Notes: generated from the sequence alone by a model not told the origin. Counted from the stretch's first letter, positions 5,736 through 56,330 are shown. The stretch is DNA of 64,000 nucleotides from Escherichia coli (GCF_044324785.1 NZ_CP172127.1), one strand, 5' to 3'. Translations and numbers: made by a program.

Positions 5736-7124
5736 ATGTCTGAACGCTATATTCCACGCTCCGTTGATGCAGAGCAGGCCGTGCTGGGCGGCCTGATGCT
5801 CGATAATGAACGCTGGGATGAGGTGGTACTGATGCTCCGGGGGGAGGATTTTTCTCTGGCCGCACACCGGGTGATATTCCGCACCATGTCAGAGCTGGCA
5901 ACCAGCGGTCAGCCGTTCGACCTCATCACGCTGAGTGAGCATATTGAGAAAACAAACAATATTGAGGCACTGGGTGGTTTCGCTTATCTGGCTGAACTCA
6001 GCAAAAATACGCCTTCTGCAGCCAATATTATCGCTTATGCCCGTATTGTTGCTGAAAAGAGCATGCTGCGTCAGTTGCAGGAGACGGGGAATGCGCTGAT
6101 TACGGATGTGGCCGCACCGGATGCGACACCACGCACTGTTCTTGAATCCGCTGAACGTCGGCTCTTTTCACTTTCACAGACTGGCATGTTGCATGAGCGA
6201 TGTGAAGTCAGTCTCACCTCGGCTATGGAGCTGGCGCTGCGTCAACTGGAAGAGGGACTGAACGCCGGCGGGATGACGGGCACGCCCACGGGATTTGATG
6301 AACTGGATAAGATGACCTGTGGTCTGCAGCCCGGCGACCTCATTCTTCTGGCTGCACGCCCGTCTATGGGGAAAACAGCGCTGGGCCTTACCTTCTGTCT
6401 TAATGCCCTGTGTAACCGGACCGATGAAACGGTATTTCTTTTCAGTATCGAAATGTCCCGGGAGCAGCTGATTCTGCGTGTCCTGTCAATGCTCTCCAGG
6501 GTGGAGCTGACACGTCTTCGCAGCAGCATGATGAATGATGAAGAGTGGGCGAGAGTCACGGCAACCATGGGACGCTTCATGAATGAAGCGTCATTCATCG
6601 GAGATGGAAACCGCCTGATAATTGATGACACCTCCTTCCAGACGCCGTCATCGCTGCGTGCCAGCGCCCGTCGTTATGTCCGTCTGTATGGCAGACCTTC
6701 CCTGATAATGGTTGATTACCTCCAGCTGATTCGTTCTCCGGACCAGGAGAACCGAACGCAGGAAATTGCGGAAATATCCCGCGCCCTTAAGGCGTTAGGT
6801 AAAGAGCTGGGATGCCCGGTACTGGCACTGTCTCAGCTTAACCGTCAGGTGGAGCAGCGGGCGGATAAGCGCCCCAATAACGGTGACCTGCGTGATTCCG
6901 GGGCGCTGGAGCAGGATGCTGACCTCATTATGTTTATTTACCGTGATGAGGTTTATAACTCTGGCACGCTGGATAAGGGCGTTGCTGAAATCATTGTGAG
7001 CAAACAGCGGCAGGGGCCAACCGGAACGATACGGGTGAACTTCGACGGCCGCTACACCCTGTTTTCACCGTTTGAACGTGGATGGAATTTTGACCGTGCC
7101 GGAGGAAATGCGTATGTCAATTAA
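5736..7124 (+). CDS. DnaB-like replicative DNA helicase
   Basis: N-terminal DnaB domain (AEQAVLGGLMLDN), Walker A ARPSMGKTALGLTF, Walker B IMVDYLQL; SD GGGAGGTGG before ATG 5736. Confidence 0.9.
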   Translation: MSERYIPRSVDAEQAVLGGLMLDNERWDEVVLMLRGEDFSLAAHRVIFRTMSELATSGQPFDLITLSEHIEKTNNIEALGGFAYLAELSKNTPSAANIIAYARIVAEKSMLRQLQETGNALITDVAAPDATPRTVLESAERRLFSLSQTGMLHERCEVSLTSAMELALRQLEEGLNAGGMTGTPTGFDELDKMTCGLQPGDLILLAARPSMGKTALGLTFCLNALCNRTDETVFLFSIEMSREQLILRVLSMLSRVELTRLRSSMMNDEEWARVTATMGRFMNEASFIGDGNRLIIDDTSFQTPSSLRASARRYVRLYGRPSLIMVDYLQLIRSPDQENRTQEIAEISRALKALGKELGCPVLALSQLNRQVEQRADKRPNNGDLRDSGALEQDADLIMFIYRDEVYNSGTLDKGVAEIIVSKQRQGPTGTIRVNFDGRYTLFSPFERGWNFDRAGGNAYVN

Positions 7125-8766
7125 ACGAAATCATTCCGTTGATCTGGGAGCTGCCATCATGCAACCGGGCCGTCAGGCCAGCACGACGGGTAACGTGGTG
7201 GCGCTGGGGGAAACACCGATGATTCTGACGCTGGATCAACTGCGCCCCAACCCGGATAACCCGAGGACCACGCGTAATCCCCGGTACGACGATATTAAAA
7301 GTTCAATTTTCTCCCGTGGACTGGATACGGTGCCCAAAGTCACCCGGATACCTGAGAGTGAGCCGGATATCTATATTTTCAGCGATGGTGGTAACACGCG
7401 ATATCAGATCCTGAAAGAGCTGTGGGAGGAGACCGGCGATCAGCGTTTCTATCGTATTCATGTGCTTTTCAAGCCATGGCCGGGACGGCTTCAGTGCGTC
7501 ATTGGTCACCTGGCTGAGAATGAAGTCAGGGGCGAACTGACGTTTATTGAAAAGGCCCGGGGTATCCATAACGCCCGGATGATTTATGAGGAGTCGATGC
7601 AGCGAACCGTGACGATCAGGGAACTGGCGTCACTGCTGACGGATGAAGGACTTCCGGTAAGCCACTCATCTGTCAGCAGGATGGAGCATACTCTGAAATA
7701 TCTGTATCCGTGGATCCCCGATCTTCTGGAATCAGGATTAGGAAGACCGCAGATCAATTCACTGTTGTCTCTCCGGCAGGATGCGGAACGCATCTGGGGA
7801 CAGTTTGCGGTGGCAACAGAGAACGGGGCGGATTTTGACCGCGTGTTTGGTGAATGCTGCAGCAAATTCAATTCACCGGAGCTCTGGTCACTGGAGATGT
7901 TCCGGGATGAGCTGATTGGTGATCTGCTGAAAGCGTTACCACATCCGGTGCTGGATTATGACCGCTGGTTGCTTGAACTGGATCCGCGGGAGCGTAACCG
8001 ACGTCACCATTTTGGCGAACCTGAGCCGGTGCTCATTCCCGCAGACAGTGATGCGATGCCAGAGCCTGCGACTGACGGTGTGTCGGCAGTGACGGCGGAG
8101 AAGAACAGCGGAAGGGAGCAGTCTGTGATTTCCGCACCGGCTGACCATGACACCGTCATGAATACGGAGCAATCCCCGGCTGGAAAGGCGGAGAGTTCAG
8201 TTATCGAACAACGCGAAGAACGCCGTAGAAAGGAAGTCCAGCCGGATATGTATGGTGGTGAAGAAACATACAGCGGCGATTACGAAGAGGATGGCGATAC
8301 CCGTGATGCTGCGGATCTGCCGGTAACGTCACCGGAAGAGGGGGCTCAGCAGAGCAGCGGTGAAATATTCAGTGAGCCGGTATTCAGTGTTGGTGAACTG
8401 GATGATATCGAATATCTGCAGAATGAGGCATTTCACCTGGCATGGGAGCTGGCGTCACACACAGGCTGTGTCGATGAGCTGGCTATGGACAGGGAAAGCG
8501 AACTGTCTGCGGGATTCGGCGCGGCAGAGGCGAATTGTTCTCCGGTCATGGCATTTCTTGTCAGACTGACCGGTGAGGAGGTTCTGCGGGTCAATCCGGT
8601 TTCCCTTGATGCACTGCTGATAGGCGGCAGTACTGAAGAAGACCTGCCGTTGCTTGATGATGAACATGCAGGAAAGTTGCTTCGCCTGCTGGGTGTGTTG
8701 CGTCGTCTGCGGGGGCTGCAGCGTATGGTGGAAGACGAGAGTGAGGAAGGGCGCGATGAATGCTGA
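7114..8766 (+). CDS. ParB-like nuclease-domain protein with acidic C-terminal region
   Basis: N-terminal ParB/Srx-like domain (LTLDQLRPNPDNPR...); SD GGAGGAA before ATG 7114; overlaps dnaB-like stop by 11 nt. Confidence 0.8.
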   Translation: MSIKRNHSVDLGAAIMQPGRQASTTGNVVALGETPMILTLDQLRPNPDNPRTTRNPRYDDIKSSIFSRGLDTVPKVTRIPESEPDIYIFSDGGNTRYQILKELWEETGDQRFYRIHVLFKPWPGRLQCVIGHLAENEVRGELTFIEKARGIHNARMIYEESMQRTVTIRELASLLTDEGLPVSHSSVSRMEHTLKYLYPWIPDLLESGLGRPQINSLLSLRQDAERIWGQFAVATENGADFDRVFGECCSKFNSPELWSLEMFRDELIGDLLKALPHPVLDYDRWLLELDPRERNRRHHFGEPEPVLIPADSDAMPEPATDGVSAVTAEKNSGREQSVISAPADHDTVMNTEQSPAGKAESSVIEQREERRRKEVQPDMYGGEETYSGDYEEDGDTRDAADLPVTSPEEGAQQSSGEIFSEPVFSVGELDDIEYLQNEAFHLAWELASHTGCVDELAMDRESELSAGFGAAEANCSPVMAFLVRLTGEEVLRVNPVSLDALLIGGSTEEDLPLLDDEHAGKLLRLLGVLRRLRGLQRMVEDESEEGRDEC

Positions 8767-9487
8767 TGCCGCACGTCAGGATCAACTGATTAAACGGATA
8801 AGAAAACTGCTGGCGCTGAGCCGGAATAACAGTAACCCCCATGAGGCAGGCCAGGCACTTTCCCGTGCTCAGGCGCTGATGCGCAAGCACGGTATCACTG
8901 AACTGGATACTGATATTTCGGTGATAAAGACCTCGTCATCAAAGGGGGCCCCGTCAGAAGCGGAAAAAGTTCCGGTATGGATGGGGCGCCTTATGCATGT
9001 TGTTGCAGAGGCATTCGGATGCCATACATACCTGGACTGGCGTATCACAACCGGAAGGTACTGGCGGCGGGTTGTCATATTTTATGGCTTTGGGGAGCGC
9101 CCGGTTGTGGCGGCGTATGCCTTTGATGTTCTCTGCCGGCAGATGCAAAAGGCAACAAAGGCGTATCTTTCAACCCAGAGCCGGACATTAAAATTGTCAA
9201 CCCGAAGGGCAAGAGCAGCCATGTTTCGTGACGGCTGGGTTTATGGGGTGCGTGATGTGGTGGATGCATTCCCGCTCACGGAAGATGAGACGCGTGTAAT
9301 GAAGACGTGGCTGAAGAGACAGCAATTTGAGGGAATGGCTGCCTTCCGGAATGTTAAGGACTGTAATGGTGGTGATCGTGCACGCTGGCAGGGATACAAC
9401 GAGGGGAAAAAGGCAACGCTGAATCACGGTGTTGGTTCCCGGGATCTGAGACCGGAAAGCCTGATATCGGGCGGAGGTGAGGTATGA
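8756..9487 (+). CDS. Conserved ICE protein, DUF2786-like N-terminus
   Basis: MNADAARQDQLIKRIRKLLALSRNNSNPHEAGQALSRAQALMRKHGI; SD GAGGAAGG before ATG 8756; family by recall. Confidence 0.65.
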   Translation: MNADAARQDQLIKRIRKLLALSRNNSNPHEAGQALSRAQALMRKHGITELDTDISVIKTSSSKGAPSEAEKVPVWMGRLMHVVAEAFGCHTYLDWRITTGRYWRRVVIFYGFGERPVVAAYAFDVLCRQMQKATKAYLSTQSRTLKLSTRRARAAMFRDGWVYGVRDVVDAFPLTEDETRVMKTWLKRQQFEGMAAFRNVKDCNGGDRARWQGYNEGKKATLNHGVGSRDLRPESLISGGGEV

Positions 9488-10062
9488 GTAACAACTTATC
9501 ACAGGCCACCAACGGGCTGTTGATGCAACTGGTGATGGATCTCAAGAGTGGCTATCTGCGGCGATGTGAAGCGCTGGGGCTTTCCCGGGAAGAAATGCAG
9601 ATGCTGCAGGGGCTGAGCATTGAAGAAATTCACTATCTGTCAAATTCAGAAGTGTCGGTGCTGCGGCTGGATATTAACCACAACAATCTTGTGCGCATGT
9701 TGCAGCAGGCGCGGACTGAACAGAAACGTCTGCAGCGAATCGATCGCGCTCTGGCGCTGGGTGGGTCTATCGAACTCATGGCGTTTTATTTTGGTCTTTC
9801 CAGCGTGGATGTGGCTGCGCGGCGTCGTATCTCCGGTATTGATGTTCGTCCCGGAAGGGGGATCACCCTGAGTGACGATGAGAATTCTGAACTCTGGCGG
9901 TTGTGGCAGAAAGCCGGGATCAATGATGTGGAGAGTGTGGATGGGCTGGATGTCATGATGCTTTGTGCTGAACAGATGAACATTCCACTGACGGCCATCT
10001 GGCATGCCGTCAGAGGGTGGCATACAACCGGAAATCCGGATCAGGTAAGGAGTGCGTCATGA
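9484..10062 (+). CDS. Conserved ICE hypothetical protein (SPI-7-type replication/regulatory region protein)
   Basis: 192-aa ORF translationally coupled to flanking genes; family by recall. Confidence 0.65.
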   Translation: MSNNLSQATNGLLMQLVMDLKSGYLRRCEALGLSREEMQMLQGLSIEEIHYLSNSEVSVLRLDINHNNLVRMLQQARTEQKRLQRIDRALALGGSIELMAFYFGLSSVDVAARRRISGIDVRPGRGITLSDDENSELWRLWQKAGINDVESVDGLDVMMLCAEQMNIPLTAIWHAVRGWHTTGNPDQVRSAS

Positions 10063-22983: not shown

Positions 22984-23618
22984 TGTCGCTGCTGCTGATG
23001 GCAGTCAGCATTCCGGCGGGGGCGGCGCTGCATGATATCCCGGAGGGATACGTGCGTGTGGCGGAACAGCATGGTGTTCCGGCAGAAGTACTCTATGCCG
23101 TCTCGCTGACCGAGACGGCCATGGTCCCCTCCGCCATTGGTGCTGTAATGAAAAAACGGAATGAGGATTACAGGGTACCAGCAGTGGCACGTCCCTGGCC
23201 CTGGACCATCAATGTGGCGGGCCGGGGATACCGCTATGCCAGTCGACTGGAGGCCTGGCAGGCCCTCCAGGTTTTTCTGAAACGATATCCGGCCCGACGG
23301 ATTGATGTGGGGATAGCCCAGGTCAATCTGGGCTGGAACGGGCACCGTTTTGCGTCCACATGGGCGGCATTTGACCCGTACACCAGTCTGAACACGGCGG
23401 CGGTCATCCTGAGAGAATGTCGCCGTCGCCATCCTGACAGCTGGCTGCAGGCTGCCGGCTGTTATCACCATCCGGCAGGCGGCGCACCCGCAGTACGCTA
23501 CATCGCGCTGGTGAGGCGGCATATTGACCGCCTCCACCGTGATGCGGTCAGTACGTCAGGTGTGACTGCCATGAATCCCCGTTATATCCGGACAGAACCC
23601 CGGGAGTTAACCCCATGA
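22962..23618 (+). CDS. Lytic transglycosylase (SLT-domain) of T4SS
   Basis: Signal peptide; ...EVLYAVSLTETAM... SLT-like catalytic Glu region. Confidence 0.7.
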   Translation: MARGSLLMSLLLMAVSIPAGAALHDIPEGYVRVAEQHGVPAEVLYAVSLTETAMVPSAIGAVMKKRNEDYRVPAVARPWPWTINVAGRGYRYASRLEAWQALQVFLKRYPARRIDVGIAQVNLGWNGHRFASTWAAFDPYTSLNTAAVILRECRRRHPDSWLQAAGCYHHPAGGAPAVRYIALVRRHIDRLHRDAVSTSGVTAMNPRYIRTEPRELTP

Positions 23619-24142
23619 AACGATTTAAACGATATGTCATGACGACCGCAACGGGTCTGTTGCTGTGCGCGGCTCAGGCCGGCGCGGAGCTCAGGGTGAT
23701 TGCTGACCTTGGTGGCAGTGATGCCGGCAGGTTTTATGAAGCAATAAACCGCCAGGCGGACAGCGGAACGTCGTCGCCTGTCACGGCGCTGCTGCCGCAG
23801 GGGGAGAGTGCGATGCTGCCTGTTTCCACGCCGGAAATGTCTCCCGGAGAGGTGACGCCGAGGCCACTGCAGTTACCGGGGCTGGGGGCACTGTTCCTCG
23901 TGGGGGATGATGCACTCTCCCGTCAGTGGCTGCAGGCGAATGCGGCCGCGCTGCTTGAAAGGAAGGCTGCCGGTATGGTGGTGAGCGTGACGAATGAGAG
24001 CGGTCTGCAGGCGCTGCGGGCGCTGGCTCCCGGTGTGATGATGGTACCGGCTTCCGGTTCAGCACTGGCCCGCCGTCTGCAGCTTGACCACTGGCCGGTG
24101 CTGATAACGGACAGTGGTATCAGCAGTGTGGTGATGCCGTGA
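23615..24142 (+). CDS. ICE conjugation protein (secreted)
   Basis: Signal peptide LLCAAQAGA; SD GGGAG before ATG. Confidence 0.65.
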   Translation: MKRFKRYVMTTATGLLLCAAQAGAELRVIADLGGSDAGRFYEAINRQADSGTSSPVTALLPQGESAMLPVSTPEMSPGEVTPRPLQLPGLGALFLVGDDALSRQWLQANAAALLERKAAGMVVSVTNESGLQALRALAPGVMMVPASGSALARRLQLDHWPVLITDSGISSVVMP

Positions 24143-24732
24143 TGCAGAGACAACTGACGGACCTGTTACAGGAAGGCGCGTGGCACGGCATTCTGCTGTG
24201 CGTTCTGGTCGTGCTGTTTCTGTTTTTTCCGCGCCTGTGGGGGCGATGCAGGCATCGTGAACGCGCCAGTGAGCGTCGTCACCGCCGTTACCGCGCTGCG
24301 GCTGAACGTGTGCTGACAAAGCTGCCGGAAGGTGGGGCGGGTGTGAAATACCTGCGAAAAATTAACCCGTATGTGTTTGAAGAACTGCTGCTTCTGGCGT
24401 TTGAACGCAGGGGGATGGCGGTCATCCGTAACACACGTTACAGCGGAGATGGTGGCCTGGATGGTCAGGTGCTGATTGACGGCGAGCGGTGGCTGATTCA
24501 GGCCAAACGTTACGGACGGACCATCCGTCCGTCGCATATTGATGATTTTGGTGACCTGCTGCGCCGTGAAGGCTGCCGTGGATTTTTTATTCACACCGGT
24601 CGTACGGGACCTGCCAGCCGGGCACGGCTGGCGCTGTGGCCGGATATTGAGCTGGTCAGCGGGCAGCGTCTGCTGAAACTGCTGAACGGGGCATTGCTGC
24701 CGGATGAACTTACCAGAGGAGCGCGGAGATGA
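24139..24732 (+). CDS. Membrane-anchored restriction-endonuclease-like (Mrr-cat-like) protein
   Basis: N-terminal TM segment; C-terminal ...YSGDGGLDGQVLIDGERWLIQAKRY... resembles PD-(D/E)xK Mrr catalytic core (recall). Confidence 0.6.
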   Translation: MMQRQLTDLLQEGAWHGILLCVLVVLFLFFPRLWGRCRHRERASERRHRRYRAAAERVLTKLPEGGAGVKYLRKINPYVFEELLLLAFERRGMAVIRNTRYSGDGGLDGQVLIDGERWLIQAKRYGRTIRPSHIDDFGDLLRREGCRGFFIHTGRTGPASRARLALWPDIELVSGQRLLKLLNGALLPDELTRGARR

Positions 24733-25241
24733 TGACGGTAAAACGGATGTTTATGTTTTTATTCAGAATAACGATTGTCTGGCCATCCGTGCTGACAGGA
24801 TGCGTGATGATGCTGTATTTCGCGAAGGTCGCCGGCGGTGGTGTGGCGGGACTGGAGCAGCGTTACGGGGTGGAATCCGCCCGCTGGCGTGATGCGCCGG
24901 AAGGGATGGTGATGACAGTGCAGTGCCCGTCGCGTCCCTTTATGGCGTCTGTGAGCACCGGGGAGTGGCGTGCACTGGCTGCATCTGATGATGAATGCAG
25001 CCAGGTTTCGCGCTCTTTCAGAGAAGCTGCAGAGGGCGATGCGCAGTCGCTGCGCAGAGTGGCAGTGACACTGCTGCTGGCATCCGTGGTTCTGGAAGCG
25101 TTTTCAGCCTGCATTCTGCGCCGGGTAACGGCATCCGTCCGGGTATCACCACACTGTGGATATGGCTGCGGACGTGGTGCGGTGGCGCACTGGCCAGAGA
25201 GCAGCGTTCACACTGCACCGGAGAAAGGAGAGCGGGTGTGA
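24729..25241 (+). CDS. Putative lipoprotein
   Basis: Hydrophobic N-terminus with LTGC lipobox; low-complexity remainder lowers confidence. Confidence 0.4.
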   Translation: MMTVKRMFMFLFRITIVWPSVLTGCVMMLYFAKVAGGGVAGLEQRYGVESARWRDAPEGMVMTVQCPSRPFMASVSTGEWRALAASDDECSQVSRSFREAAEGDAQSLRRVAVTLLLASVVLEAFSACILRRVTASVRVSPHCGYGCGRGAVAHWPESSVHTAPEKGERV

Positions 25242-26023
25242 ACGTTTCATTTACTGAACAGGTGCAGAGGGATATGCCGCAATGGGCGAATGACCCGTTA
25301 CTGGCATGGGATGCCACCGCGTTTGCGGCAATGTCGGATTTTATTACAGAGCACTACTGGACGGGACAGGGCAGCATCAATGTGTTCCGCATTGTGGGAA
25401 CTGACCATCCACAGTATGCCGGAATGACCTGGCTGGAGCTGCTGGAGCGCGGTAACCGTATGGACATCAATATCCCGTTACTGGAAAAAAATCCGGGATA
25501 CTACACGCAGGCAGAGCAACAGCATGCCGGGATGAGTTTTGTCAGCACGGATGGCGTTGACTGGTATGTCAGTGCAGACGGCAATCACCGCAGTTGCCTG
25601 GCACGCTTTCTGTTTCACCTGCAGGGGGAGGAGCGCACACAGCTTCACAACGTGGCACAGAGTATTTATCACACAGACCGGGCGTTCTGGTCTGCCTGCC
25701 GGGAAATCCACAACCTGACTGACGCGCTGTCCCGGCATGGTGTGTATATCCGTCTGCAGACCCGACGGCAGTGTGTTGCCCGCGAAGACCTGGCCTGCTG
25801 GAAAGTGGACCGTTTCAGCACAGAGGCGCAGCTGACAGTGGATGACGTGCGTGCCGGCGGACATGATATGCCTGCGGTGTATAAGACGTTGCTGCTGAAT
25901 GCAGCAGACGCATGGCGTGAGGTGATGGTATTACAGCGCAGACTGGAGGCGCTGTCTGCATCACCGGGGAACGATTTGCCACGCACATGGTGGCGACGTC
26001 TTTTACGGAAGGGGGACATGTAA
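25238..26023 (+). CDS. ICE conjugation-block hypothetical protein
   Basis: GTG 25238 after AAAGGAGAG; stop overlaps traD start (TAATG). Confidence 0.55.
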   Translation: MNVSFTEQVQRDMPQWANDPLLAWDATAFAAMSDFITEHYWTGQGSINVFRIVGTDHPQYAGMTWLELLERGNRMDINIPLLEKNPGYYTQAEQQHAGMSFVSTDGVDWYVSADGNHRSCLARFLFHLQGEERTQLHNVAQSIYHTDRAFWSACREIHNLTDALSRHGVYIRLQTRRQCVAREDLACWKVDRFSTEAQLTVDDVRAGGHDMPAVYKTLLLNAADAWREVMVLQRRLEALSASPGNDLPRTWWRRLLRKGDM

Positions 26024-28140
26024 TGAGCAACCGCTATGTCATTGAGGCATTGCTGAGACCGGCTGTGGAGTTCAATACGGCAGTGGTGGCAGCAACAGCA
26101 GCATGTATCTGTGTGACAGCCCCCTGGGCGGTGGCGCTGGCACCCACCGTCAGTTACGCCACTGCCGGTGGATTTGCCCTGCTGGCCGTGGTGCGTTTCC
26201 GGCAGGGGATGAACATCATCCGGTATCGCCGTAATCTGCGCCGGCTGCCCCGCTATGTGATGAGTACACGGCAGATCCCGCTCAGCCGTCAGCGGCTGTT
26301 TCTGGGGCGGGGATTTCGCTGGACCCAGAAGCATACCCAGCGTCTCCAGGATACGCTGCGACCGGAGGTGGCACACTATCTGCAGCCGGGCGGACTTTAC
26401 CGGCTGGCGCGCTGGCTGGAAATGAAAACGGAACACCGTCTGCCCGCGCTGGGGAAACTGCTCCGGCATGAGTCGTCGCTGAATCCTGTGCGTCCTCTGC
26501 CGCCGGTGGGGGGAAATCCCGCCCTGCATGGTATTGAGCCGGATGAACAGGATGTGACGCTGGCTCTGGGGGAGCGTGTGGGGCATACCATTGTCTACGG
26601 CACCACCCGTGTCGGTAAAACCCGCCTGGCAGAACTGCTGGTCACTCAGGATATCCGCAGGGGAGAGGTGACCATTGTGTTTGATCCCAAAGGTGATGCT
26701 GATCTGCTGCTGCGTGTCTGGGCGGAAGCACACCGTGCCGGGCGGGGTGATGAACTGTATATTTTCCATCTGGGATGGCCGGAAATTTCGGCCCGATATA
26801 ATGCGGTGGGACGCTTCGGGCGTGTTTCGGAAGTGGCTTCCCGTGTGGCCGGTCAGTTGTCCGGTGAAGGGAACTCGGCGGCTTTCCGCGAGTTCGCCTG
26901 GCGGTTCGTCAACATCATTTCCCGCGCCCTGGTGGCACTCGGTGAGCGCCCGGACTACCTGCTGATTGTGCGGTATGTGAACAACATAGCCGATCTCTAT
27001 ATCCGCTATGCCGGAAAGGTGATCCGCGAGCGCATGCCGGAACTGGAGCAGGCGATTGCGAATAACCAGAATGTGATCAGCGAGGAGGATGTTCCCCGCA
27101 CCATGCAGAACCAGCCGGATGCGGTACGTATCTGGTCCATCGAGATGGCCCTGAGCAGTGAGGAGGGTAAAAAAATTTACGATCCGATCCTGGACGGGCT
27201 TCGCAGTGCGGTCCGCTATGACCGTACCTATTTTGACAAAATCGTGGCGTCCCTGCTGCCGCTGCTGGAAAAACTCACCACGGGCAGGATCGCAGAGCTG
27301 CTGGCACCGGACTATCTGGACATGAACGATGCGCGACCGATTTTTGACTGGGAACAGGTGATCCGTAAAAAGGCGGTGGTCTATATCGGCCTGGATGCAC
27401 TCAGCGACAGTGTGGTAGCCAGTGCTGTGGGGAATTCGATGTTTGCGGACCTGGTGAGCGTGGCGGGGCATATCTACAAGCACGGCATGCATGCCGGTCT
27501 GCCCGGTAAGGGGGAAGGCAAAAATGTGGTGAACCTGCACTGCGATGAGTTTAACGAACTGATGGGGGATGAGTTTATTCCGCTCATTAACAAGGGGGGC
27601 GGTGCCGGTATGCAGGTCACCGCGTACACCCAGACATCGTCAGATATTGAAGCGCGTATCGGTAATGCAGCCAAAACGGCGCAGGTTCAGGGAAACTTCA
27701 ACAACATGATCATGCTGCGTGTCAGGGAGAACAGGACGGCAGAGCTGCTGACCACACAACTGCCTCAGGTGGAGATCTACACCAAGACGCTGGTCTCCGG
27801 TCACCAGGATACGGCGGACGTGTCTGCCGGTCAGGATTTCACGTCCAGCACCCAGGATCGTGTCGGCACGGTGAAGGTACCTCTGCTGGAGCCGTCAGAT
27901 ATTGTCACCCTGCCCAAGGGACAGGCGTTTGCCCTGCTGGAAGGGGGGCAGTTGTGGAAAATCCGGATGCCGCTGCCGGCAGGGGATACGGATGACGTGC
28001 TGATGCCGGAGAACATTGCCCGGGTGGCAGAGGCGATGAGACAGAACTATCACACCGGTGAAGGATGGTGGAATGAGCCGCCGTCAGCGCAGGCCGCCGG
28101 AACAGATGAAGGAGGCGGATATGGCGGAAGCGCGTCGTGA
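26023..28140 (+). CDS. traD: Conjugative coupling protein TraD (T4CP, GI-type)
   Basis: Two N-terminal TM helices, Walker A GTTRVGKT, TraD/VirD4-like architecture. Confidence 0.85.
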   Translation: MSNRYVIEALLRPAVEFNTAVVAATAACICVTAPWAVALAPTVSYATAGGFALLAVVRFRQGMNIIRYRRNLRRLPRYVMSTRQIPLSRQRLFLGRGFRWTQKHTQRLQDTLRPEVAHYLQPGGLYRLARWLEMKTEHRLPALGKLLRHESSLNPVRPLPPVGGNPALHGIEPDEQDVTLALGERVGHTIVYGTTRVGKTRLAELLVTQDIRRGEVTIVFDPKGDADLLLRVWAEAHRAGRGDELYIFHLGWPEISARYNAVGRFGRVSEVASRVAGQLSGEGNSAAFREFAWRFVNIISRALVALGERPDYLLIVRYVNNIADLYIRYAGKVIRERMPELEQAIANNQNVISEEDVPRTMQNQPDAVRIWSIEMALSSEEGKKIYDPILDGLRSAVRYDRTYFDKIVASLLPLLEKLTTGRIAELLAPDYLDMNDARPIFDWEQVIRKKAVVYIGLDALSDSVVASAVGNSMFADLVSVAGHIYKHGMHAGLPGKGEGKNVVNLHCDEFNELMGDEFIPLINKGGGAGMQVTAYTQTSSDIEARIGNAAKTAQVQGNFNNMIMLRVRENRTAELLTTQLPQVEIYTKTLVSGHQDTADVSAGQDFTSSTQDRVGTVKVPLLEPSDIVTLPKGQAFALLEGGQLWKIRMPLPAGDTDDVLMPENIARVAEAMRQNYHTGEGWWNEPPSAQAAGTDEGGGYGGSAS

Positions 28141-47175: not shown

Positions 47176-48081
47176 ATGTCCAGACGTGAGAAATTGCTTA
47201 AAAAGGATCTGGTTGCTCATGTCCGAAAAGAAAAGGGGAGTTTTAAAAAGTTAAGTGACTATACAAGGATTATGCATCGATTCGCTGAAACGCTTGCTCG
47301 TCTGAATGTACAGATTAGTTCTGCTGCACAGTTAAAAGTTCGTCACATTGAATTATATATGAACAGCAGGACGGATGTATCAAAACGAACGAGAGAAAAT
47401 GAAATGTCAGCAATACGCGCGGTTTTACGTCAGGTTGGTAAGAATAAACTTGCCGATCCCAGCCATCCACGGCTGAGTAATAAAGCATTAGGTATTTCAG
47501 GTGAGAGTCGTAAAGGTACGAAAAGTCTGATTACAGACGATCGTTTTCGTGAAATTCTTCAGCGCATTGAACAAAAAGATAAAGGACTCGCTGCAACGGT
47601 TAAATTGTCGCGTTATCTTGGTCTGAGAAATGAGGAGGCCATTCAGTCCGCCAAATCGCTCAAAACATGGAAACAGGCATTAGAACGGGGAGATGAAAAA
47701 TTACGTGTTATTTTTGGTACGAAAGGCGGTCGTGAGAGAATGACCACGATTGTTGACAGAAATAATGTTATTGAGGCTGTTAATTATGCTATTAAATATG
47801 CCGGTGAGCATGACGGGCGATTAATCGACAGAGGTAATCTTAAGTCTGCAATGAATTATTATCTTAACTCATTGCGTCGTTATGGTGAAATGAAAGGCGG
47901 TGATGAGACACCACATAGTTTTCGTTACAGTTATGCCGCAAGTGCAATGAAATACCATATTATGAATGGTTACAGTTATCATGAAGCGCTTGCATTAACA
48001 TCTATGGATCTTGGTCACGGTGACGGCAGAGGACGTTATATCGAGCAGGTATATTGCCAGTTGTTAGGACATGAAGAATAG
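47176..48081 (+). CDS. Tyrosine-recombinase/integrase-like protein
   Basis: SD TAAGGAGAA before ATG; candidate catalytic residues R (LGLRNEEA), HxxR (HSFRYSYA), Y (GRGRYIEQVY); family by pattern only. Confidence 0.55.
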   Translation: MSRREKLLKKDLVAHVRKEKGSFKKLSDYTRIMHRFAETLARLNVQISSAAQLKVRHIELYMNSRTDVSKRTRENEMSAIRAVLRQVGKNKLADPSHPRLSNKALGISGESRKGTKSLITDDRFREILQRIEQKDKGLAATVKLSRYLGLRNEEAIQSAKSLKTWKQALERGDEKLRVIFGTKGGRERMTTIVDRNNVIEAVNYAIKYAGEHDGRLIDRGNLKSAMNYYLNSLRRYGEMKGGDETPHSFRYSYAASAMKYHIMNGYSYHEALALTSMDLGHGDGRGRYIEQVYCQLLGHEE

Positions 48082-52246: not shown

Positions 52247-52353
52247 CCGGCTGGACTTTTGACGATGGCGGAATGTGACAATTCCGCTTTTCCCGTGAGG
52301 GCATTGTTCCTCACGGGACAATGCCCTCTTCATTTACCAGAGGAGCATTGATT

Positions 52354-53331
52354 ATGGCTGAATGGTGCAGAAATCGTTTTGAAATCACCGGTAAGTCAGT
52401 CTGTCTTGACGTACTGATTCAGTGGATTGAAGGGAATGATGCCCCCCGGTACCGTCATGCGATCCAGCAGAGCATACTGCTGTTTCTTGCAGGCTGTGCG
52501 GGGATACTGAAACCGGTAAGAACGGTGTCATATCCGCCTTATCCCGGGCTGGTCAGTCACGGTGCCGGCTCAACAACTGTAGCCAGTCAGGCGTTTGAAC
52601 AATGGCTGGGATTACTGACCAGGGATGCCTTCCTTGATCACGAGACGGTGAAGACAATAGATCGTCTTTATCATCAGACAGGGACAGGCGCTATCCGGTG
52701 GAGTAATCTGCCTGATACGGCGAAGGAGATAATCGGTGGTGTGCTTGCACAACAATATGCTGACTGGTTTGGCGTGGCGGATGTGTATGAACGCCCTGAT
52801 AACGCCTTTCTCTGGGAGTCGTTGTTAACATTTGCGGAGTATTCGCAACCCTGTGATATGCTGCAGGTGATGCCAACACGACTGGCCACGGAGCTGAACG
52901 GAAGTGGTGGTTTGCTGAAAGGCACCGGAACGACCCGCAGTTTTTACTGCCGCCAGTTTGGTATGGAGTACCCACTGGGGCAGAATGTCCGGTGGAAACG
53001 AACCGGGCTGAGTACGTTGATACTGGAGTTTGATACCATCTGGTGTCCGCCTTCAGGTGTACTGGTGGGGGAGATTTCGGCAGTGTTTGACTGTGAGGTC
53101 CGTCACTGGTACAGCGAGCCGAAGAACGGAATCAGAGGCTATGACTGTTATGATGGTGGTGAACATACGGACAGCAATATGGAAGCCGAATGGCCACACT
53201 CTGACGATGAGGGGGAGGTCGCGGAGCATGAGCAGCCACAACTCTGTCTGATCAGGGACACGCAGCCAGGTGAACGCGTCATGGCATTAGCATCAGTCGA
53301 GTCCCCGGGGCCAGTAGTAAAAATAGTGTAA
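52354..53331 (+). CDS. Hypothetical protein
   Basis: SD GGAG before ATG 52354 (MAEWCRNRFEITG...). Confidence 0.55.
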   Translation: MAEWCRNRFEITGKSVCLDVLIQWIEGNDAPRYRHAIQQSILLFLAGCAGILKPVRTVSYPPYPGLVSHGAGSTTVASQAFEQWLGLLTRDAFLDHETVKTIDRLYHQTGTGAIRWSNLPDTAKEIIGGVLAQQYADWFGVADVYERPDNAFLWESLLTFAEYSQPCDMLQVMPTRLATELNGSGGLLKGTGTTRSFYCRQFGMEYPLGQNVRWKRTGLSTLILEFDTIWCPPSGVLVGEISAVFDCEVRHWYSEPKNGIRGYDCYDGGEHTDSNMEAEWPHSDDEGEVAEHEQPQLCLIRDTQPGERVMALASVESPGPVVKIV

Positions 53332-53412: not shown

Positions 53413-56328
53413 TTACTGAGTCAGTTTTTTTATCAGGTCGTGAATTTTATCACCTGAAAACTGGGTCATGAAAGTTATCTTTATGGATTTACTGATTTGT
53501 TCGAAGAGTTTCTGTGCATGTTTTATTTTATCGCGTTCTTCATGTCTGAGTTCACGTTTGCCATCAACATTTTTGGTTTCAATAATAAGGTTCAGATAAT
53601 CACCCTTTGACGTGTTTACAACATAAGCGAAGTCAGGGGAGTAAGTGTATCCTCCCGCTACAGGAATTTTTATTGAATTTTTGGGGATCTTTGTGAAGAC
53701 AATGACTGACCTGACCTCACCCTCTGTCATATTGAGTTTTTCAAGTTCTGAATCATAAAATACTTCTTCAAAAAGATAAGAGTCCAGTGGAGGGCTTGTA
53801 TTATCCTGTAAAACGCCAAGATCACTTGACAATACATCAGCAAGATAACCGCCGTCTGCATTGGTGAATTTCGTGGGATGGACAGTTCCTGATATTACAT
53901 TATACCCAAGGCTGAATTTACTGAACGAGTTATTAAGCAAATACTTGCTGAAACCAGATTTAATTTTTCTGATTGTCTGAATGTTAAGGTATTCAGTTAT
54001 ATTTATGATGTCTTTTATATCACAAAAAACCTTATGCATGGTGTCATGTTTGACAAAAATAGTCTGTGATAATTTATCAAGGAATTCACGATAGCTCATT
54101 GTGTTTATTTTGTGAAAATTATCCTCATCAACACTGAGAATGCTTTTCGACATTGCCGTATCATTATGGATATAAATTCTTTCAATACGAGTATGAGCAC
54201 CGGATTTGGTAAATCTGTCTGCTTCTTCCAGCATAAACGCTCTGAAAAGGGATAAAAACTCACGTTCACTTTTTATTTTATACTCAATCACGACCTTTTG
54301 ATTGATCAAGTCCCATAGTTCTTTCAGCTCACTGAACTTACCAACACGCATTTTAGTGCGTCTTTTTCCATCAGAGGCTTTTTTTATTTTGCCTGGTTTC
54401 ACTCCTGCAGGAAATGCTGCCGGATATCTGGCTTTTAAGCGGCTATAGGCATCTGAATCTTTGAAGTTATCATTATCATCAATGATCTCATCACCAAAAA
54501 TTTCATTCAAGAGTGTTCTGGAGGAAAGCTCCGGATATTGAGACAGGATTTTATCCTTAAGCTCCTGAGTAAACTTACCTGGAACAGTCTCTTTGAAAGA
54601 ACTATCGTTGATCTCTTTGACAAGAGAATCGACAAAATCTTTTTCTGTAAAATCAACATAATAGTTGAGGGTAAAATTGCGGTCTTTCACACGACACATG
54701 TATTCATTCACCGGAAGACGTAAACCACGCCCTACTTCCTGAAGTTTAGATGTGGTGCTACCGCTCGAACGGAGCTTACAAATCTGAAAGACATTTGGGT
54801 TATCCCATCCCTCACGCAACGTCCATTTAGAGAAAATGAAACGGCGAGGATTTTCTAAAGACAATAGAAGCTCTTTATCATGAAGGATTTCGTTGATTTC
54901 CTGCTCAATTTTATCATCTTTATCACTATTATCTTTTGAAAAATAACCACCATGAACAGAAGATATATCCTTAACAGTTTTTTCAAGGTAGTTTCTGTAA
55001 AACTCATCTTTTTCTGTTTTTAACAGTTCATTTGCTTCTGCCAAAACGTATTCTTCGAACTTAGTTTTCAGGCTTCCTGCAATATCATTACCATCACGAT
55101 AGCCTTCAATGTCATCAATGAAGAAAAGAGTAAGAGGTTTTATGCGTGGCCTTTGTGTCAGATACTCTTTTTCTAACTTAAAGTGTTCTTTGACAGCTTT
55201 ACGTATCATGTTATCAGCAAGTGTCTGATCGTAAGAATAGGGGTTTATCGAACTACCAATTTTTAGCTCAATACCATTACTCAACACTGCTGTATTCTTA
55301 TTTAAAGCATCAAGAGTTAAATCATGGATCGCACTATGCGTCTTAGATAGTGATTCACCTTTGGCTAACTTAAAAATTTTTTTATTATTATTTTCGTTCA
55401 GTTCAAATGTAGCTTCTTTTCCGTCAGATTTGACCAACTTGAGGTTGGCATTACCATCACCAACTATATCCTCAATGTATGCATCAATACCTTTAACAAG
55501 ATCTTCATTGAAGGCATCTACGGCTGTAAGACGATAAACTAAGTTCTTATAGCCTTCACTAAAGGTTGCACCATAGCGGATGATATATTGGGCATTAAAT
55601 TTTTGAATATGTTCCCATGTCTTTTTACCAGTAGGAAATTTATGAGGCTCATCAATGATAATGAATGGTTTTATCGCACTAAGTGCAGAAAATGGGGTAT
55701 CAAACTGATTATTAAGCAAGCCAACATCATAAGTGTCAGTTAAAGACTTAGAGTTAATCATCCCTGAATTGATCACAAGAATGTGTATATATTTCTTATT
55801 GAAATTACTTGCTTCAACAAAATCATGGATAGCTTGAGGTATATACGATTTTGTATTTTTACCCGAACGTTTCTGACTTTCAACAACGTAAGTCTTTAGT
55901 TCACGCTCGTAATCATCTCGAAAGTGTTCTTTTATAGCATCGCTTTTTAAAAAGTTAACGGTTCCGGCTTTGATCGATAGGGTAGGAACAATGATGATAA
56001 ACTTGTTAATACCAAATGATTTGTTCAGGTCAAAAATTGTTTTGGTGTAAGTATAAGTTTTACCTGTACCTGTCTCCATAGAAACATCAATTACGTTGCT
56101 TTTAGCATCGTAATTATCTTTTGAGTGCTCAATACCATTGAACTCCTGAACATTTTTTATGTTGTTGTAGTATTGTTGTTCAGATAGATTCAGTTCTGGA
56201 TTAGCTAACAGGCGAATTGCAACATGATCCGTCTGATGAGGTATGGCGGATACAAAGACATTCATTACCGAATCAACGCCAGCCTTTTGATGAGGTAAAT
56301 TTTTTTCGAATGTGAACCCTTTAGACAT
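53413..56328 (-). CDS. res: Type III restriction enzyme Res subunit
   Basis: 971 aa; helicase Walker A METGTGKTYT, DEAH-like IIIDEPH, motif VI QEVGRGLRL, C-terminal PD-(D/E)xK; low GC; immediately downstream of mod. Confidence 0.85.
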   Translation of the reverse strand: MSKGFTFEKNLPHQKAGVDSVMNVFVSAIPHQTDHVAIRLLANPELNLSEQQYYNNIKNVQEFNGIEHSKDNYDAKSNVIDVSMETGTGKTYTYTKTIFDLNKSFGINKFIIIVPTLSIKAGTVNFLKSDAIKEHFRDDYERELKTYVVESQKRSGKNTKSYIPQAIHDFVEASNFNKKYIHILVINSGMINSKSLTDTYDVGLLNNQFDTPFSALSAIKPFIIIDEPHKFPTGKKTWEHIQKFNAQYIIRYGATFSEGYKNLVYRLTAVDAFNEDLVKGIDAYIEDIVGDGNANLKLVKSDGKEATFELNENNNKKIFKLAKGESLSKTHSAIHDLTLDALNKNTAVLSNGIELKIGSSINPYSYDQTLADNMIRKAVKEHFKLEKEYLTQRPRIKPLTLFFIDDIEGYRDGNDIAGSLKTKFEEYVLAEANELLKTEKDEFYRNYLEKTVKDISSVHGGYFSKDNSDKDDKIEQEINEILHDKELLLSLENPRRFIFSKWTLREGWDNPNVFQICKLRSSGSTTSKLQEVGRGLRLPVNEYMCRVKDRNFTLNYYVDFTEKDFVDSLVKEINDSSFKETVPGKFTQELKDKILSQYPELSSRTLLNEIFGDEIIDDNDNFKDSDAYSRLKARYPAAFPAGVKPGKIKKASDGKRRTKMRVGKFSELKELWDLINQKVVIEYKIKSEREFLSLFRAFMLEEADRFTKSGAHTRIERIYIHNDTAMSKSILSVDEDNFHKINTMSYREFLDKLSQTIFVKHDTMHKVFCDIKDIINITEYLNIQTIRKIKSGFSKYLLNNSFSKFSLGYNVISGTVHPTKFTNADGGYLADVLSSDLGVLQDNTSPPLDSYLFEEVFYDSELEKLNMTEGEVRSVIVFTKIPKNSIKIPVAGGYTYSPDFAYVVNTSKGDYLNLIIETKNVDGKRELRHEERDKIKHAQKLFEQISKSIKITFMTQFSGDKIHDLIKKLTQ

Positions 56329-56330
56329 GA

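What the first reader, a model, noticed from the sequence alone, without database searches (positions are those of the whole stretch)
24139..24732. Membrane-anchored Mrr-like nuclease domain encoded inside the T4SS operon
Seen: a TM-anchored protein with a restriction-endonuclease-like core sits among mating-pore genes. It may be a conserved but poorly understood part of this ICE family's transfer machinery, or a defence or exclusion function.
Basis: partly seen in the sequence, partly recalled or inferred. Interest (0 to 1): 0.35.

Follow-up and report, generated by a model that had tools for sequence, protein, structure and literature searches.

The report
Membrane-tethered Mrr-type nuclease of conjugative elements
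A small gene inside the mating-machinery operon of an E. coli integrative conjugative element encodes a DNA-cutting enzyme anchored to the inner membrane; the same kind of protein recurs next to DNA-transfer genes in many unrelated conjugative plasmids and ICEs, yet a plasmid relative is dispensable for transfer, so its role is unknown.

Summary
Window 24142-24732 (+) encodes a 196-aa protein with one N-terminal transmembrane helix, an arginine-rich linker and a Mrr_cat PD-(D/E)xK nuclease domain whose catalytic D/QxK residues are intact. The domain should face the cytoplasm. The gene overlaps both neighbours in the pilL-to-traD operon of an SPI-7/ICEclc-family ICE, identical to E. coli APEC E19035.

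It is not a universal part of this T4SS. ICEclc and the E. coli M11 ICE lack it, and the NGF1 ICE carries an in-frame deletion of the nuclease core. It is fixed directly 5' of traD in 37 related loci from Enterobacterales, Shewanella and Photobacterium. Its dN/dS of 0.21 matches neighbouring backbone genes.

The same TM + Mrr_cat architecture occurs in other conjugation systems:
- after the relaxase in Sphingomonadales;
- after the coupling protein in a Bacteroidota contig;
- after KorB in two contigs;
- as IncN 'mrr' and IncL pOXA-48 orf16.

62 of 80 loci have a coupling-protein gene within 5 kb. Published pOXA-48 Tn-seq shows orf16 is dispensable for maintenance and transfer.

My best reading is an accessory nuclease, made with the transfer apparatus, whose target is set by its membrane location. 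It could be a barrier to entering DNA or a DNA-processing aid at the coupling protein. Its function is untested.

The parts
24142..24732 (+). CDS of the TM-anchored Mrr-like nuclease (196 aa from the ATG; an alternative GTG lies at 24139)
   Evidence: PGAP: 'restriction endonuclease', WP_001189536.1
24178..24240 (+). Single transmembrane helix (residues 13-33, AWHGILLCVLVVLFLFFPRLW)
   Evidence: Best 19-mer Kyte-Doolittle mean 2.26. Helix 2-37 in the AF2 model. A hydrophobic segment lies upstream of the nuclease domain in 80 of 83 family members.
24241..24321 (+). Arg-rich juxtamembrane stretch and linker helix (residues 34-60, net charge about +8), containing the conserved motif RRHxRYRxxAxRVL
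   Evidence: Read from the sequence. Alignment A1. Median net charge of +7 to +11 for the 25 aa after the TM helix in every context class. High pLDDT helix 42-60.
24352..24684 (+). Mrr_cat PD-(D/E)xK nuclease domain. Catalytic codons: E80/E81 at 24379-24384, D107 at 24460-24462, Q120 at 24499-24501, K122 at 24505-24507.
23615..24142 (+). Upstream gene: DUF2859/PFL_4695-family ICE protein (periplasmic and thioredoxin-like in ICEclc). Its stop codon shares one base with the Mrr ATG.
   Evidence: PMC10018362 Table 1
24729..25241 (+). Downstream hypothetical gene (170 aa), ATGA overlap with the Mrr stop. Variable: found in few relatives.
25274..26023 (+). Hypothetical gene (249 aa) between Mrr and traD. 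Present in only some relatives.
26023..28140 (+). traD, the type IV coupling protein (TIGR03754). It is the conserved 3' neighbour of the Mrr-like gene.

Best explanation
The gene encodes an accessory nuclease of the conjugative-element backbone, tethered to the inner membrane and facing the cytoplasm. It is a Mrr-type cleavage module in which the usual DNA-reading domain is replaced by a membrane anchor, so its target would be set by location rather than by sequence or methylation. In this ICE it is translated together with the mating apparatus, from the pilL-to-traD operon.

I take its most likely job to be cutting DNA that appears at the cytoplasmic face of the membrane in cells displaying the transfer machinery. 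That would make it a restriction-like barrier against phage or rival conjugative DNA entering such cells. It is not a structural or essential part of the pore.

Shown: the architecture, the intact catalytic residues, the operon embedding, the recurrent linkage to conjugation genes, purifying selection, and non-essentiality of a homologue. Inferred: topology, nuclease activity, the location-based targeting and the barrier role.
For: Architecture: TM helix plus positive-inside linker plus full Mrr_cat domain.

Catalytic residues: E/D/QxK are invariant or near-invariant in 56 homologues and align with EcoKMrr.

Missing reader domain: EcoKMrr has Mrr_N, this protein does not.

Structural neighbours: the closest are cleavage modules that rely on a separate targeting or sensor domain (FokI, MspJI, AspBHI, LlaBIII, Can2/Cdn1).

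Topology: a natural fusion, P0010 (signal peptide, DUF2859, TM, nuclease), fits an N-out/C-in orientation.

Co-expression: the gene overlaps both neighbours and there is no sigma-70-like site between pilL and traD.

Linkage to conjugation:
- 62 of 80 loci have a coupling-protein gene within 5 kb, and 69 of 80 have some conjugation hallmark in the fetched flanks.
- The systems are of unrelated types.
- 2026 of 2607 plasmids with a homologue are typed conjugative.

Selection: dN/dS is 0.21, like adjacent T4SS genes. TM helix and basic linker are conserved in 80 of 83 members.

Not essential for transfer:
- ICEclc lacks it.
- M11 lacks it and NGF1 has the core deleted.
- pOXA-48 orf16 is scored NE, with log2FC +0.71 and adjusted p 0.25 from input to transconjugants.
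- orf16 is not among the seven significant loci in CRISPRi screens.
Against: No experiment addresses nuclease activity, localisation or any barrier phenotype.

Several features look more like a conjugation function than like defence. The gene sits in the backbone rather than in a cargo or defence hotspot. It is inherited with each element family. The same ICE already carries a type III R-M system as cargo.

A non-specific nuclease at the membrane needs some means of sparing the host chromosome, and none is evident.

PADLOC gives only partial, domain-level hits.

If the operon is expressed only in rare transfer-competent cells, as in ICEclc, a general defence role would be weak.
Confidence: 0.37

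Rival explanations
1. The protein is a DNA-processing accessory of the coupling protein or relaxosome. Tethered beside the T4CP, it would cut or trim DNA engaged with the transfer channel, for example severing a stalled or interrupted T-strand, or clearing non-substrate DNA. This would improve transfer or donor survival under natural conditions without being essential in laboratory matings.
For: The gene lies immediately next to T4CP or relaxase genes in at least four unrelated architectures: 5' of TraD in MPF_G ICEs, 3' of a TrwC relaxase in 24 Sphingomonadales loci, overlapping the T4CP stop in Crocinitomix L066, and TraG-LPD7-Fic-Mrr in Rhizobium L060. In Shewanella and Photobacterium about 3 kb is inserted between DUF2859 and Mrr, yet the Mrr-TraD junction is kept at 14-45 bp. 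Other neighbours are DNA-metabolism genes such as topoisomerase III, primase-like, UvrD and DprA-like. It shows backbone-like vertical inheritance and dN/dS.
Against: IncN mrr (after kikA) and IncL orf16 (in the maintenance region, after an HTH gene) are not next to a T4CP. The pOXA-48 Tn-seq shows no transfer defect. ICEclc transfers without such a gene. No physical interaction has been tested.
Confidence: 0.27
2. The protein is an ordinary type IV (modification-dependent) restriction enzyme carried as host defence. The membrane anchor would be incidental.
For: The Mrr_cat domain is 30% identical to EcoKMrr with the same catalytic residues. There are weak PADLOC hits to mREase_IV and PDC-S02. 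Published tables label it 'restriction nuclease / host defense'. In pOXA-48 and Agrobacterium L039 a small HTH_3 gene lies directly upstream, as controller proteins do in R-M systems.
Against: The Mrr_N reader domain that gives EcoKMrr its methyl-dependence is absent. The TM helix and basic linker are conserved in 80 of 83 members, so they are not incidental. The strong linkage to conjugation genes, rather than defence islands, also argues against it.
Confidence: 0.15
3. The protein is a toxin or addiction-type function, or it damages host DNA in transfer-competent donor cells, with neighbouring small genes controlling it.
For: A potentially toxic non-specific nuclease lies next to small genes of unknown function (hyp170, and HTH genes in some plasmids). 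ICEs of this family are known to impose growth arrest on transfer-competent cells (PMC6812849, abstract seen).
Against: No conserved partner gene exists: hyp170 and hyp249 are variable and 20 MPF_G loci have a TraD match starting within 100 bp of the end of the Mrr match, leaving no room for a gene in between. Tn insertions in the HTH orf15 of pOXA-48 are tolerated (scored NE). The essential Xre-like orf20 of pOXA-48 is a different gene, located after nuc.
Confidence: 0.08
4. The protein is a catalytically dead scaffold or a decaying passenger gene.
For: It is weakly similar to the 'inactive REase' family NA-iREase1 (E=0.003, below cut-off). Natural deletions exist.
Against: The catalytic residues are invariant or near-invariant across 56 diverse homologues. 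dN/dS is 0.21. The gene is intact in 37 of 37 sampled relatives of this ICE branch.
Confidence: 0.05

Closest known systems
IncN plasmid 'mrr' (N3/R46/pKOX105 backbone, after kikA) and IncL pOXA-48 orf16 ('restriction nuclease')
   Same: They belong to the same protein family and have the same architecture: an N-terminal TM helix, an Arg/Lys-rich linker and a Mrr_cat domain. Identity is 45-54%. They are backbone genes of conjugative elements and none has an assigned function.
   Different: They lie in other parts of the plasmid: after kikA in IncN, and in an HTH-orf16 operon near resD/parAB in IncL. They are not inside the T4SS operon next to the coupling protein. They form a separate clade from the ICE proteins.
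E. coli K-12 EcoKMrr (type IV methyl-directed restriction enzyme)
   Same: Both have the Mrr_cat catalytic domain, 30% identical over 122 residues. D203/Q219/K221 of EcoKMrr align with D107/Q120/K122.
   Different: EcoKMrr is a soluble 304-aa protein with an N-terminal Mrr_N winged-helix domain. Here that domain is replaced by a TM helix and a basic linker.
Modular REase-fold cleavage domains: FokI, MspJI/AspBHI, the Type ISP LlaBIII nuclease, and CARF nucleases Can2/Card1/Cdn1
   Different: Their partner domains are DNA readers, translocases or cyclic-oligoadenylate sensors. Here the only partner element is a membrane anchor.
Nuc of pKM101/IncL-M plasmids (phospholipase-D-family nuclease encoded in conjugative plasmid backbones)
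   Same: It is a nuclease of unclear role, conserved in conjugative plasmid backbones and dispensable in tests. The pOXA-48 nuc deletion has no stability phenotype.
   Different: It has an unrelated fold (PLD rather than PD-(D/E)xK) and is exported rather than being a cytoplasm-facing TM protein (from general knowledge; the PLD annotation is seen).
MOBC relaxases (TraX of pAD1, MobC of CloDF13)
   Same: They are PD-(D/E)xK-fold enzymes dedicated to conjugative DNA processing (PMC12857230).
   Different: They are soluble oriT-specific nickases that act as the element's relaxase. Here canonical relaxases coexist: TrwC lies directly upstream in the Sphingomonadales loci. The protein is a small TM-anchored Mrr_cat protein with no other Pfam match.

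Membership tests
Mrr_cat / PD-(D/E)xK nuclease superfamily | Sequence match to the Mrr_cat profile above the curated threshold | tested here: met
   PF04471, E=1.9e-19, 70.3 bits against a cut-off of 21, profile positions 1-115 of 115
Mrr_cat / PD-(D/E)xK nuclease superfamily | Catalytic acidic residue(s) and a (Q/E)xK motif | tested here: met
   E80, E81, D107 and Q120 are invariant and K122 is at least 90% conserved in 56 homologues. They align to D203/Q219/K221 of EcoKMrr.
Mrr_cat / PD-(D/E)xK nuclease superfamily | Restriction-endonuclease alpha/beta core fold | tested here: met
Type IV methyl-directed restriction enzyme Mrr (EcoKMrr type) | N-terminal Mrr_N winged-helix DNA-reading domain | tested here: not met
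   EcoKMrr has PF14338 at residues 6-91. The query has no such match; its N-terminus is a TM helix.
Type IV methyl-directed restriction enzyme Mrr (EcoKMrr type) | Cleavage dependent on modified DNA | not testable with these tools
   Needs biochemical or in vivo restriction assays
Core component of the MPF_G (ICEclc/PFGI-1/SPI-7) T4SS | Present in the characterised model system's conjugation gene set | tested here: not met
   In ICEclc Table 1, orf71178 (DUF2859) is directly followed by orf68987 (iceD4/TraD) with no nuclease gene (PMC10018362).
Core component of the MPF_G (ICEclc/PFGI-1/SPI-7) T4SS | Universally conserved in syntenic position among relatives | tested here: inconclusive
   Present 5' of traD in 37 loci. 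Absent from the E. coli M11 ICE, and its core is deleted in NGF1.
Core component of the MPF_G (ICEclc/PFGI-1/SPI-7) T4SS | Required for conjugative transfer | not testable with these tools
   No mutant of this ICE is available. The IncL homologue orf16 is dispensable in Tn-seq.
Known anti-phage defence systems (PADLOC-DB v2) | Full-length match to a defence-system protein model | tested here: not met
   Only partial matches restricted to the nuclease domain: PDC-S02 E=8.7e-7 and mREase_IV E=3.4e-5, aligned to the C-terminal part of 317-390-position profiles.
Entry-exclusion proteins of conjugative systems (TraS/Eex type) | Inner-membrane protein encoded in the transfer region that blocks entry from donors carrying the same element | not testable with these tools
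   The membrane anchor and tra-operon location are met. Exclusion activity cannot be tested. No NCBIfam exclusion model matched. Known exclusion proteins are not nucleases (general knowledge).
MOBC restriction-endonuclease-like relaxases | Acts as the element's relaxase, with homology to TraX/MobC | not tested
   No direct comparison with MOBC sequences was made. Indirect evidence is against it: the only Pfam hit above threshold is Mrr_cat, and a TrwC relaxase is encoded directly upstream in 24 loci.

The most novel reading that the evidence does not exclude
TM-tethered Mrr-type nucleases would be a previously unrecognised module dedicated to conjugation, found across phyla. In this reading a non-specific cleavage domain is aimed purely by being anchored at the DNA portal, next to the coupling protein. 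It would act either as a 'gatekeeper' that destroys DNA entering cells displaying a mating apparatus, or as a cutter that frees a jammed transfer channel. That would be a spatial rather than chemical way of telling self from non-self.
Probability: 0.25. Interest if true: 0.7.

Novelty: new variant of a known kind. Interest (0 to 1): 0.45.

Why it matters
Conjugative plasmids and ICEs spread resistance and virulence genes, and their backbones still hold conserved genes of unknown role. This family is present in thousands of clinical plasmids (IncL pOXA-48, IncN) and in SPI-7-type ICEs. It is routinely labelled 'restriction endonuclease' and ignored.

The analysis shows that it is one conserved architecture: membrane anchor, basic linker and an intact Mrr-type active site. 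It is tied to coupling-protein and relaxase genes in unrelated transfer systems. That turns a vague annotation into a testable question: does a nuclease positioned at the membrane police DNA traffic during conjugation? If so, it would add a location-based principle to restriction. It would also bear on plasmid competition, retrotransfer and phage attack on piliated cells.

Tried and rejected
1. A literature hit for 'Mrr' in the pCTX-M3 review was a false lead. There MRR means 'multiple resistance region'.

2. I suspected that the essential Xre-like orf20 of pOXA-48 might repress the Mrr-like gene. It does not. orf19/orf20 lie after nuc, while the HTH next to the nuclease is orf15, and both orf15 and orf16 are non-essential.

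3. A profile search of PDB sequences with alignment A1 found nothing at E<=0.01. Only fold comparison worked.

4. Papers on the Pectobacterium ICE, ICEPan, ICEKp2 and ICEclc cell-arrest do not mention this gene. The ICEEc2 paper (PMC2944505) is not held.

5. Recent anti-conjugation defence preprints (AbjA; Namtar/Attar/Ishtar) concern unrelated proteins.

6. The neighbouring hyp170 and hyp249 gave no Pfam or PDB sequence hit, even at permissive thresholds.

7. The NA-iREase1 ('inactive REase') match is below its cut-off and is contradicted by the intact catalytic residues.

8. The MOBC-relaxase idea was set aside because canonical relaxases coexist with the gene.

9. A promoter scan found no internal sigma-70-like site between pilL and traD. 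This is weak evidence only.

Full report
**1. What is at the coordinates**

An ORF runs from 24139 (GTG) or 24142 (ATG) to 24732 on the + strand. The whole region is 100% identical to the chromosome of E. coli O2:K1:H5 APEC E19035. There PGAP starts the gene at the ATG and calls it 'restriction endonuclease', WP_001189536.1.

Pfam gives a full-length Mrr_cat (PF04471) match at E=1.9e-19, and nothing else above threshold. NCBIfam has no model for it.

Residues 13-33 (AWHGILLCVLVVLFLFFPRLW) are strongly hydrophobic, with a best 19-mer Kyte-Doolittle mean of 2.26. Residues 34-60 follow with eleven Arg/Lys and three Glu. The 12 N-terminal residues carry a net charge of -1. By the positive-inside rule the N-terminus is periplasmic and the nuclease domain cytoplasmic. 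This is an inference.

The AlphaFold2 model built on 56 homologues has mean pLDDT 93. It shows a long helix (2-37), a linker helix (42-60) and an alpha/beta core.

**2. Is the nuclease likely to be active?**

In an alignment of 56 homologues that are 33-81% identical to the query, E80, E81, Y100, G104, G105, D107, Q120, H151, T152, G153 and G174 are invariant. D103, K122, R123 and Y124 are at least 90% conserved.

BLASTP against E. coli K-12 EcoKMrr gives 30% identity over 122 residues. It aligns GDGGLDG/QAKRY of the query with GDGGIDG/QAKRW of EcoKMrr, so D107/Q120/K122 correspond to D203/Q219/K221.

- N.BspD6I, Cdn1, Can2 and NucS

The difference from classical Mrr lies in the N-terminus. 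EcoKMrr has an Mrr_N reader domain at residues 6-91. This protein has a membrane anchor instead.

**3. Genomic setting**

The window is an ICE of the SPI-7/ICEclc/PFGI-1 (MPF_G) family. It carries an integrase, ParA, a SPI-7-type DnaB, ParB, topoisomerase III, SSB, and then the transfer genes:

PilL - hyp - TIGR03759 - SLT - DUF2859/PFL_4695 - Mrr-like - hyp170 - hyp249 - TraD - TIGR03747 - further T4SS genes

The DUF2859 stop codon and the Mrr ATG share a base (TGATG). The Mrr stop and the next ATG overlap as ATGA. A consensus scan finds no sigma-70-like promoter between pilL and traD, which is weak evidence. The gene is therefore most likely transcribed and translated with the transfer operon.

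**4. Is it part of the family's machinery?**

In the experimentally dissected model ICEclc, the DUF2859 gene orf71178 is directly followed by the coupling-protein gene iceD4. No nuclease gene is listed (PMC10018362 Table 1).

A genome-wide scan with the family alignment returned 80 loci. In all Enterobacterales MPF_G loci with enough flank the gene lies between DUF2859 and TraD. The genera include Serratia, Erwinia, Pantoea, Photorhabdus, Xenorhabdus, Pectobacterium, Morganella and Hafnia.

In Shewanella and Photobacterium TraD is only 43-45% identical and about 3 kb is inserted after DUF2859. The gene still lies 14-45 bp upstream of traD.

The two hypothetical genes that separate it from traD in the window are not conserved.

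Against a second E. coli ICE lineage (AH19B041) the dN/dS values are as follows:

| Gene | dN/dS |
|---|---|
| Mrr-like | 0.21 |
| PilL | 0.16 |
| SLT | 0.21 |
| TIGR03759 | 0.21 |
| DUF2859 | 0.25 |
| TIGR03747 | 0.19 |
| TraD | 0.07 |

The gene is not indispensable for persistence of such ICEs. The E. coli M11 ICE (TraD 70% identical) has tandem-repeat DNA instead of the gene. The NGF1 ICE (TraD 90% identical) retains a 94-aa in-frame remnant, the TM helix and linker joined to the last 30 or so residues, with the nuclease core gone.

The conclusion is that it is a lineage-fixed accessory gene, not a universal T4SS component.

**5. The family is much wider than this ICE**

The remaining loci show the same small protein in other conjugation systems:
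- 24 Sphingomonadales loci have the order RHH protein, TrwB-type coupling protein, TrwC relaxase, Mrr-like, putative transglycosylase.
- Rhizobium L060 has TraG, LPD7, Fic, Mrr.
- Serratia L047 has TraG, then Mrr, then topoisomerase III.
- The Bacteroidota contig L066 has a coupling protein whose stop abuts the Mrr start.
- Treponema L078 and Xenorhabdus L056 have topoisomerase III next to it.
- Two contigs, a Porticoccaceae MAG (L063) and Marinobacterium (L072), have KorB immediately upstream.

Overall 62 of 80 loci have a coupling-protein gene within 5 kb. 69 of 80 have at least one conjugation or plasmid-backbone hallmark in the fetched flanks.

In PLSDB, 2607 plasmids encode a homologue and 2026 of them are typed conjugative. 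They include two well-known groups:
- IncL pOXA-48, where the gene is orf16 and is preceded by an HTH gene.
- IncN plasmids, where it follows kikA and has long been labelled 'mrr'.

Both have the TM helix and the basic linker.

Across 83 family members, 80 have a hydrophobic segment upstream of the nuclease domain, followed by a stretch with net charge +7 to +11.

A neighbour-joining tree of the nuclease domain groups proteins by element type. There is one Enterobacterales MPF_G clade and one Sphingomonadales clade, and IncN and IncL fall together. This indicates long association with each backbone.

**6. Experimental information from a relative**

The pOXA-48 Tn-seq of Baffert et al. lists orf16 as 'Restriction nuclease / Host defense'. 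It was scored non-essential in donors. Its 18 insertion sites went from a mean of 155 reads in the input to 256 in transconjugants, log2FC +0.71 with adjusted p 0.25. By contrast, trb genes collapse from about 480 to about 11 (PMC12365149 supplements).

The parallel CRISPRi study found significant fitness or stability effects for only seven loci, and this gene is not among them (PMC12361523).

A homologue 54% identical in the nuclease domain is therefore not needed for maintenance or transfer in laboratory conditions.

I found no paper that studies the function of any family member.

**7. How it most likely works**

Shown:
- the membrane-anchor plus Mrr-type active-site architecture;
- co-translation with transfer genes in this ICE;
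- recurrent linkage to coupling-protein and relaxase genes;
- purifying selection;
- dispensability of a homologue.

Inferred: the cytoplasmic orientation. This is supported by the natural fusion P0010 (signal peptide, DUF2859, TM, nuclease), which only makes topological sense with an N-out/C-in orientation.

The closest structural relatives are cleavage modules that are non-specific on their own. They are aimed or switched by a second domain: the FokI and MspJI readers, the LlaBIII translocase, the Can2/Cdn1 CARF sensors. Here the only second element is the anchor.

My best reading (confidence about 0.37) is a location-targeted nuclease that cuts DNA arriving at the inner face of the membrane in cells making the mating apparatus. 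That would be a barrier to phage or rival conjugative DNA.

The main rival (about 0.27) is a DNA-processing or channel-clearing aid for the coupling protein. That reading explains the tight T4CP/relaxase adjacency better. It explains the IncN and IncL positions and the absence of any transfer phenotype worse.

Lesser rivals:
- An ordinary type IV restriction enzyme (0.15). It lacks the reader domain, and the anchor is too conserved to be incidental.
- A toxin or addiction role (0.08). There is no conserved partner gene.
- A dead or decaying gene (0.05). The invariant catalytic residues and the dN/dS contradict this.

**8. Comparison with what is known, and novelty**

The gene is a member of the Mrr_cat/PD-(D/E)xK superfamily; profile, motif and fold were all tested and met. 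It belongs to the same family as IncN 'mrr' and pOXA-48 orf16.

It is not a member of the EcoKMrr type IV enzyme family in the strict sense, because Mrr_N is absent. It is not a core MPF_G component, because ICEclc lacks it. It is not a catalogued defence system, because PADLOC gives only domain-level hits.

The gene itself is already annotated in databases. What appears not to have been described is the family-wide pattern:
- a conserved TM-anchor architecture;
- association with conjugation modules across Pseudomonadota, Bacteroidota and a Treponema contig (family members also occur on cyanobacterial contigs, where no conjugation gene was seen in the flanks);
- fixation next to traD in the SPI-7-like branch.

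I rate it a new variant of a known kind, of moderate interest. The function is open, directly testable, and relevant to very common resistance plasmids.

Noticed in passing
L084 3956-4240 (E. coli NGF1 chromosome, NZ_CP016007.1): This is a natural in-frame deletion allele of the Mrr-like gene. The 94-aa product keeps the TM helix and Arg-rich linker and joins them to the last 30 or so residues, so the nuclease core is missing. The flanking DUF2859, hyp249 and TraD genes are intact.
   Followed up: partly
L085 5326-6150 (E. coli M11 chromosome, NZ_CP010206.1): A related ICE has no Mrr-like gene between DUF2859 and traD. It has about 0.8 kb of tandem-repeat DNA instead. PGAP annotates this as a 189-aa minus-strand 'hypothetical protein' made of GVSTGNSAQNL-like repeats, which is probably not a real gene.
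   Followed up: partly
proteins P0010 (340 aa) and P0004 (276 aa): These are fusions of the upstream DUF2859 protein with the Mrr-like protein. P0010 is signal peptide, DUF2859, TM, nuclease, which is topologically coherent. P0004 lacks the TM helix and would place the nuclease domain behind a signal peptide.
   Followed up: partly
window 53413-58367 (- strand): There is a type III restriction-modification system in the cargo region of the same ICE. Mod (678 aa) has N6_N4_Mtase and the EcoP15I C-terminal domain. Res (971 aa) has ResIII and RE_endonuc.
   Followed up: partly
window 25274-26023 (+) and 24729-25241 (+): Two hypothetical genes lie between the nuclease gene and traD. Neither has a Pfam or PDB sequence match. 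hyp249 contains a 'SADGNHRS' stretch reminiscent of the ParB/sulfiredoxin DGxHR motif; this was not tested. It is conserved in only a few relatives and is kept in NGF1, where the nuclease core is lost. hyp170 has the highest dN/dS of the block, 0.41.
   Followed up: partly
L082 8625-9453 (pOXA-48-type plasmid NZ_CP068343.1) and L039 4170-5363 (Agrobacterium rubi): In these elements a small HTH_3/XRE gene lies directly upstream of the Mrr-like gene; in pOXA-48 the two overlap. The arrangement resembles controller (C) proteins of restriction-modification systems.
   Followed up: no
L061 and L062 (Shewanella sairae, Photobacterium frigidiphilum), about 6900-10000: About 3 kb of extra sequence is inserted between DUF2859 and the Mrr-like gene, while the Mrr-traD junction stays tight at 14-45 bp. 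Their Mrr-like proteins fall outside the enterobacterial ICE clade in the NJ tree. This could reflect independent acquisition at the same position or simply long branches.
   Followed up: no
window 47176-48081 (+), 52321-53331 (+), 61790-62992 (-): These are other cargo or backbone items: a second integrase-like gene (Integrase_1), a DUF1281/Api92-like gene and a TraF_2-family gene. In the identical record a type B ribosomal protein L31 paralogue lies in the cargo region (L001 41917-42180).
   Followed up: no
L023 454-3465 (Erwinia oleae contig98): Here the Mrr-like gene is followed within 35 bp by a 1003-aa protein with a TraC_F_IV (VirB4-type ATPase) domain instead of TraD. Its nuclease nevertheless clusters with the MPF_G clade.
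   Followed up: no
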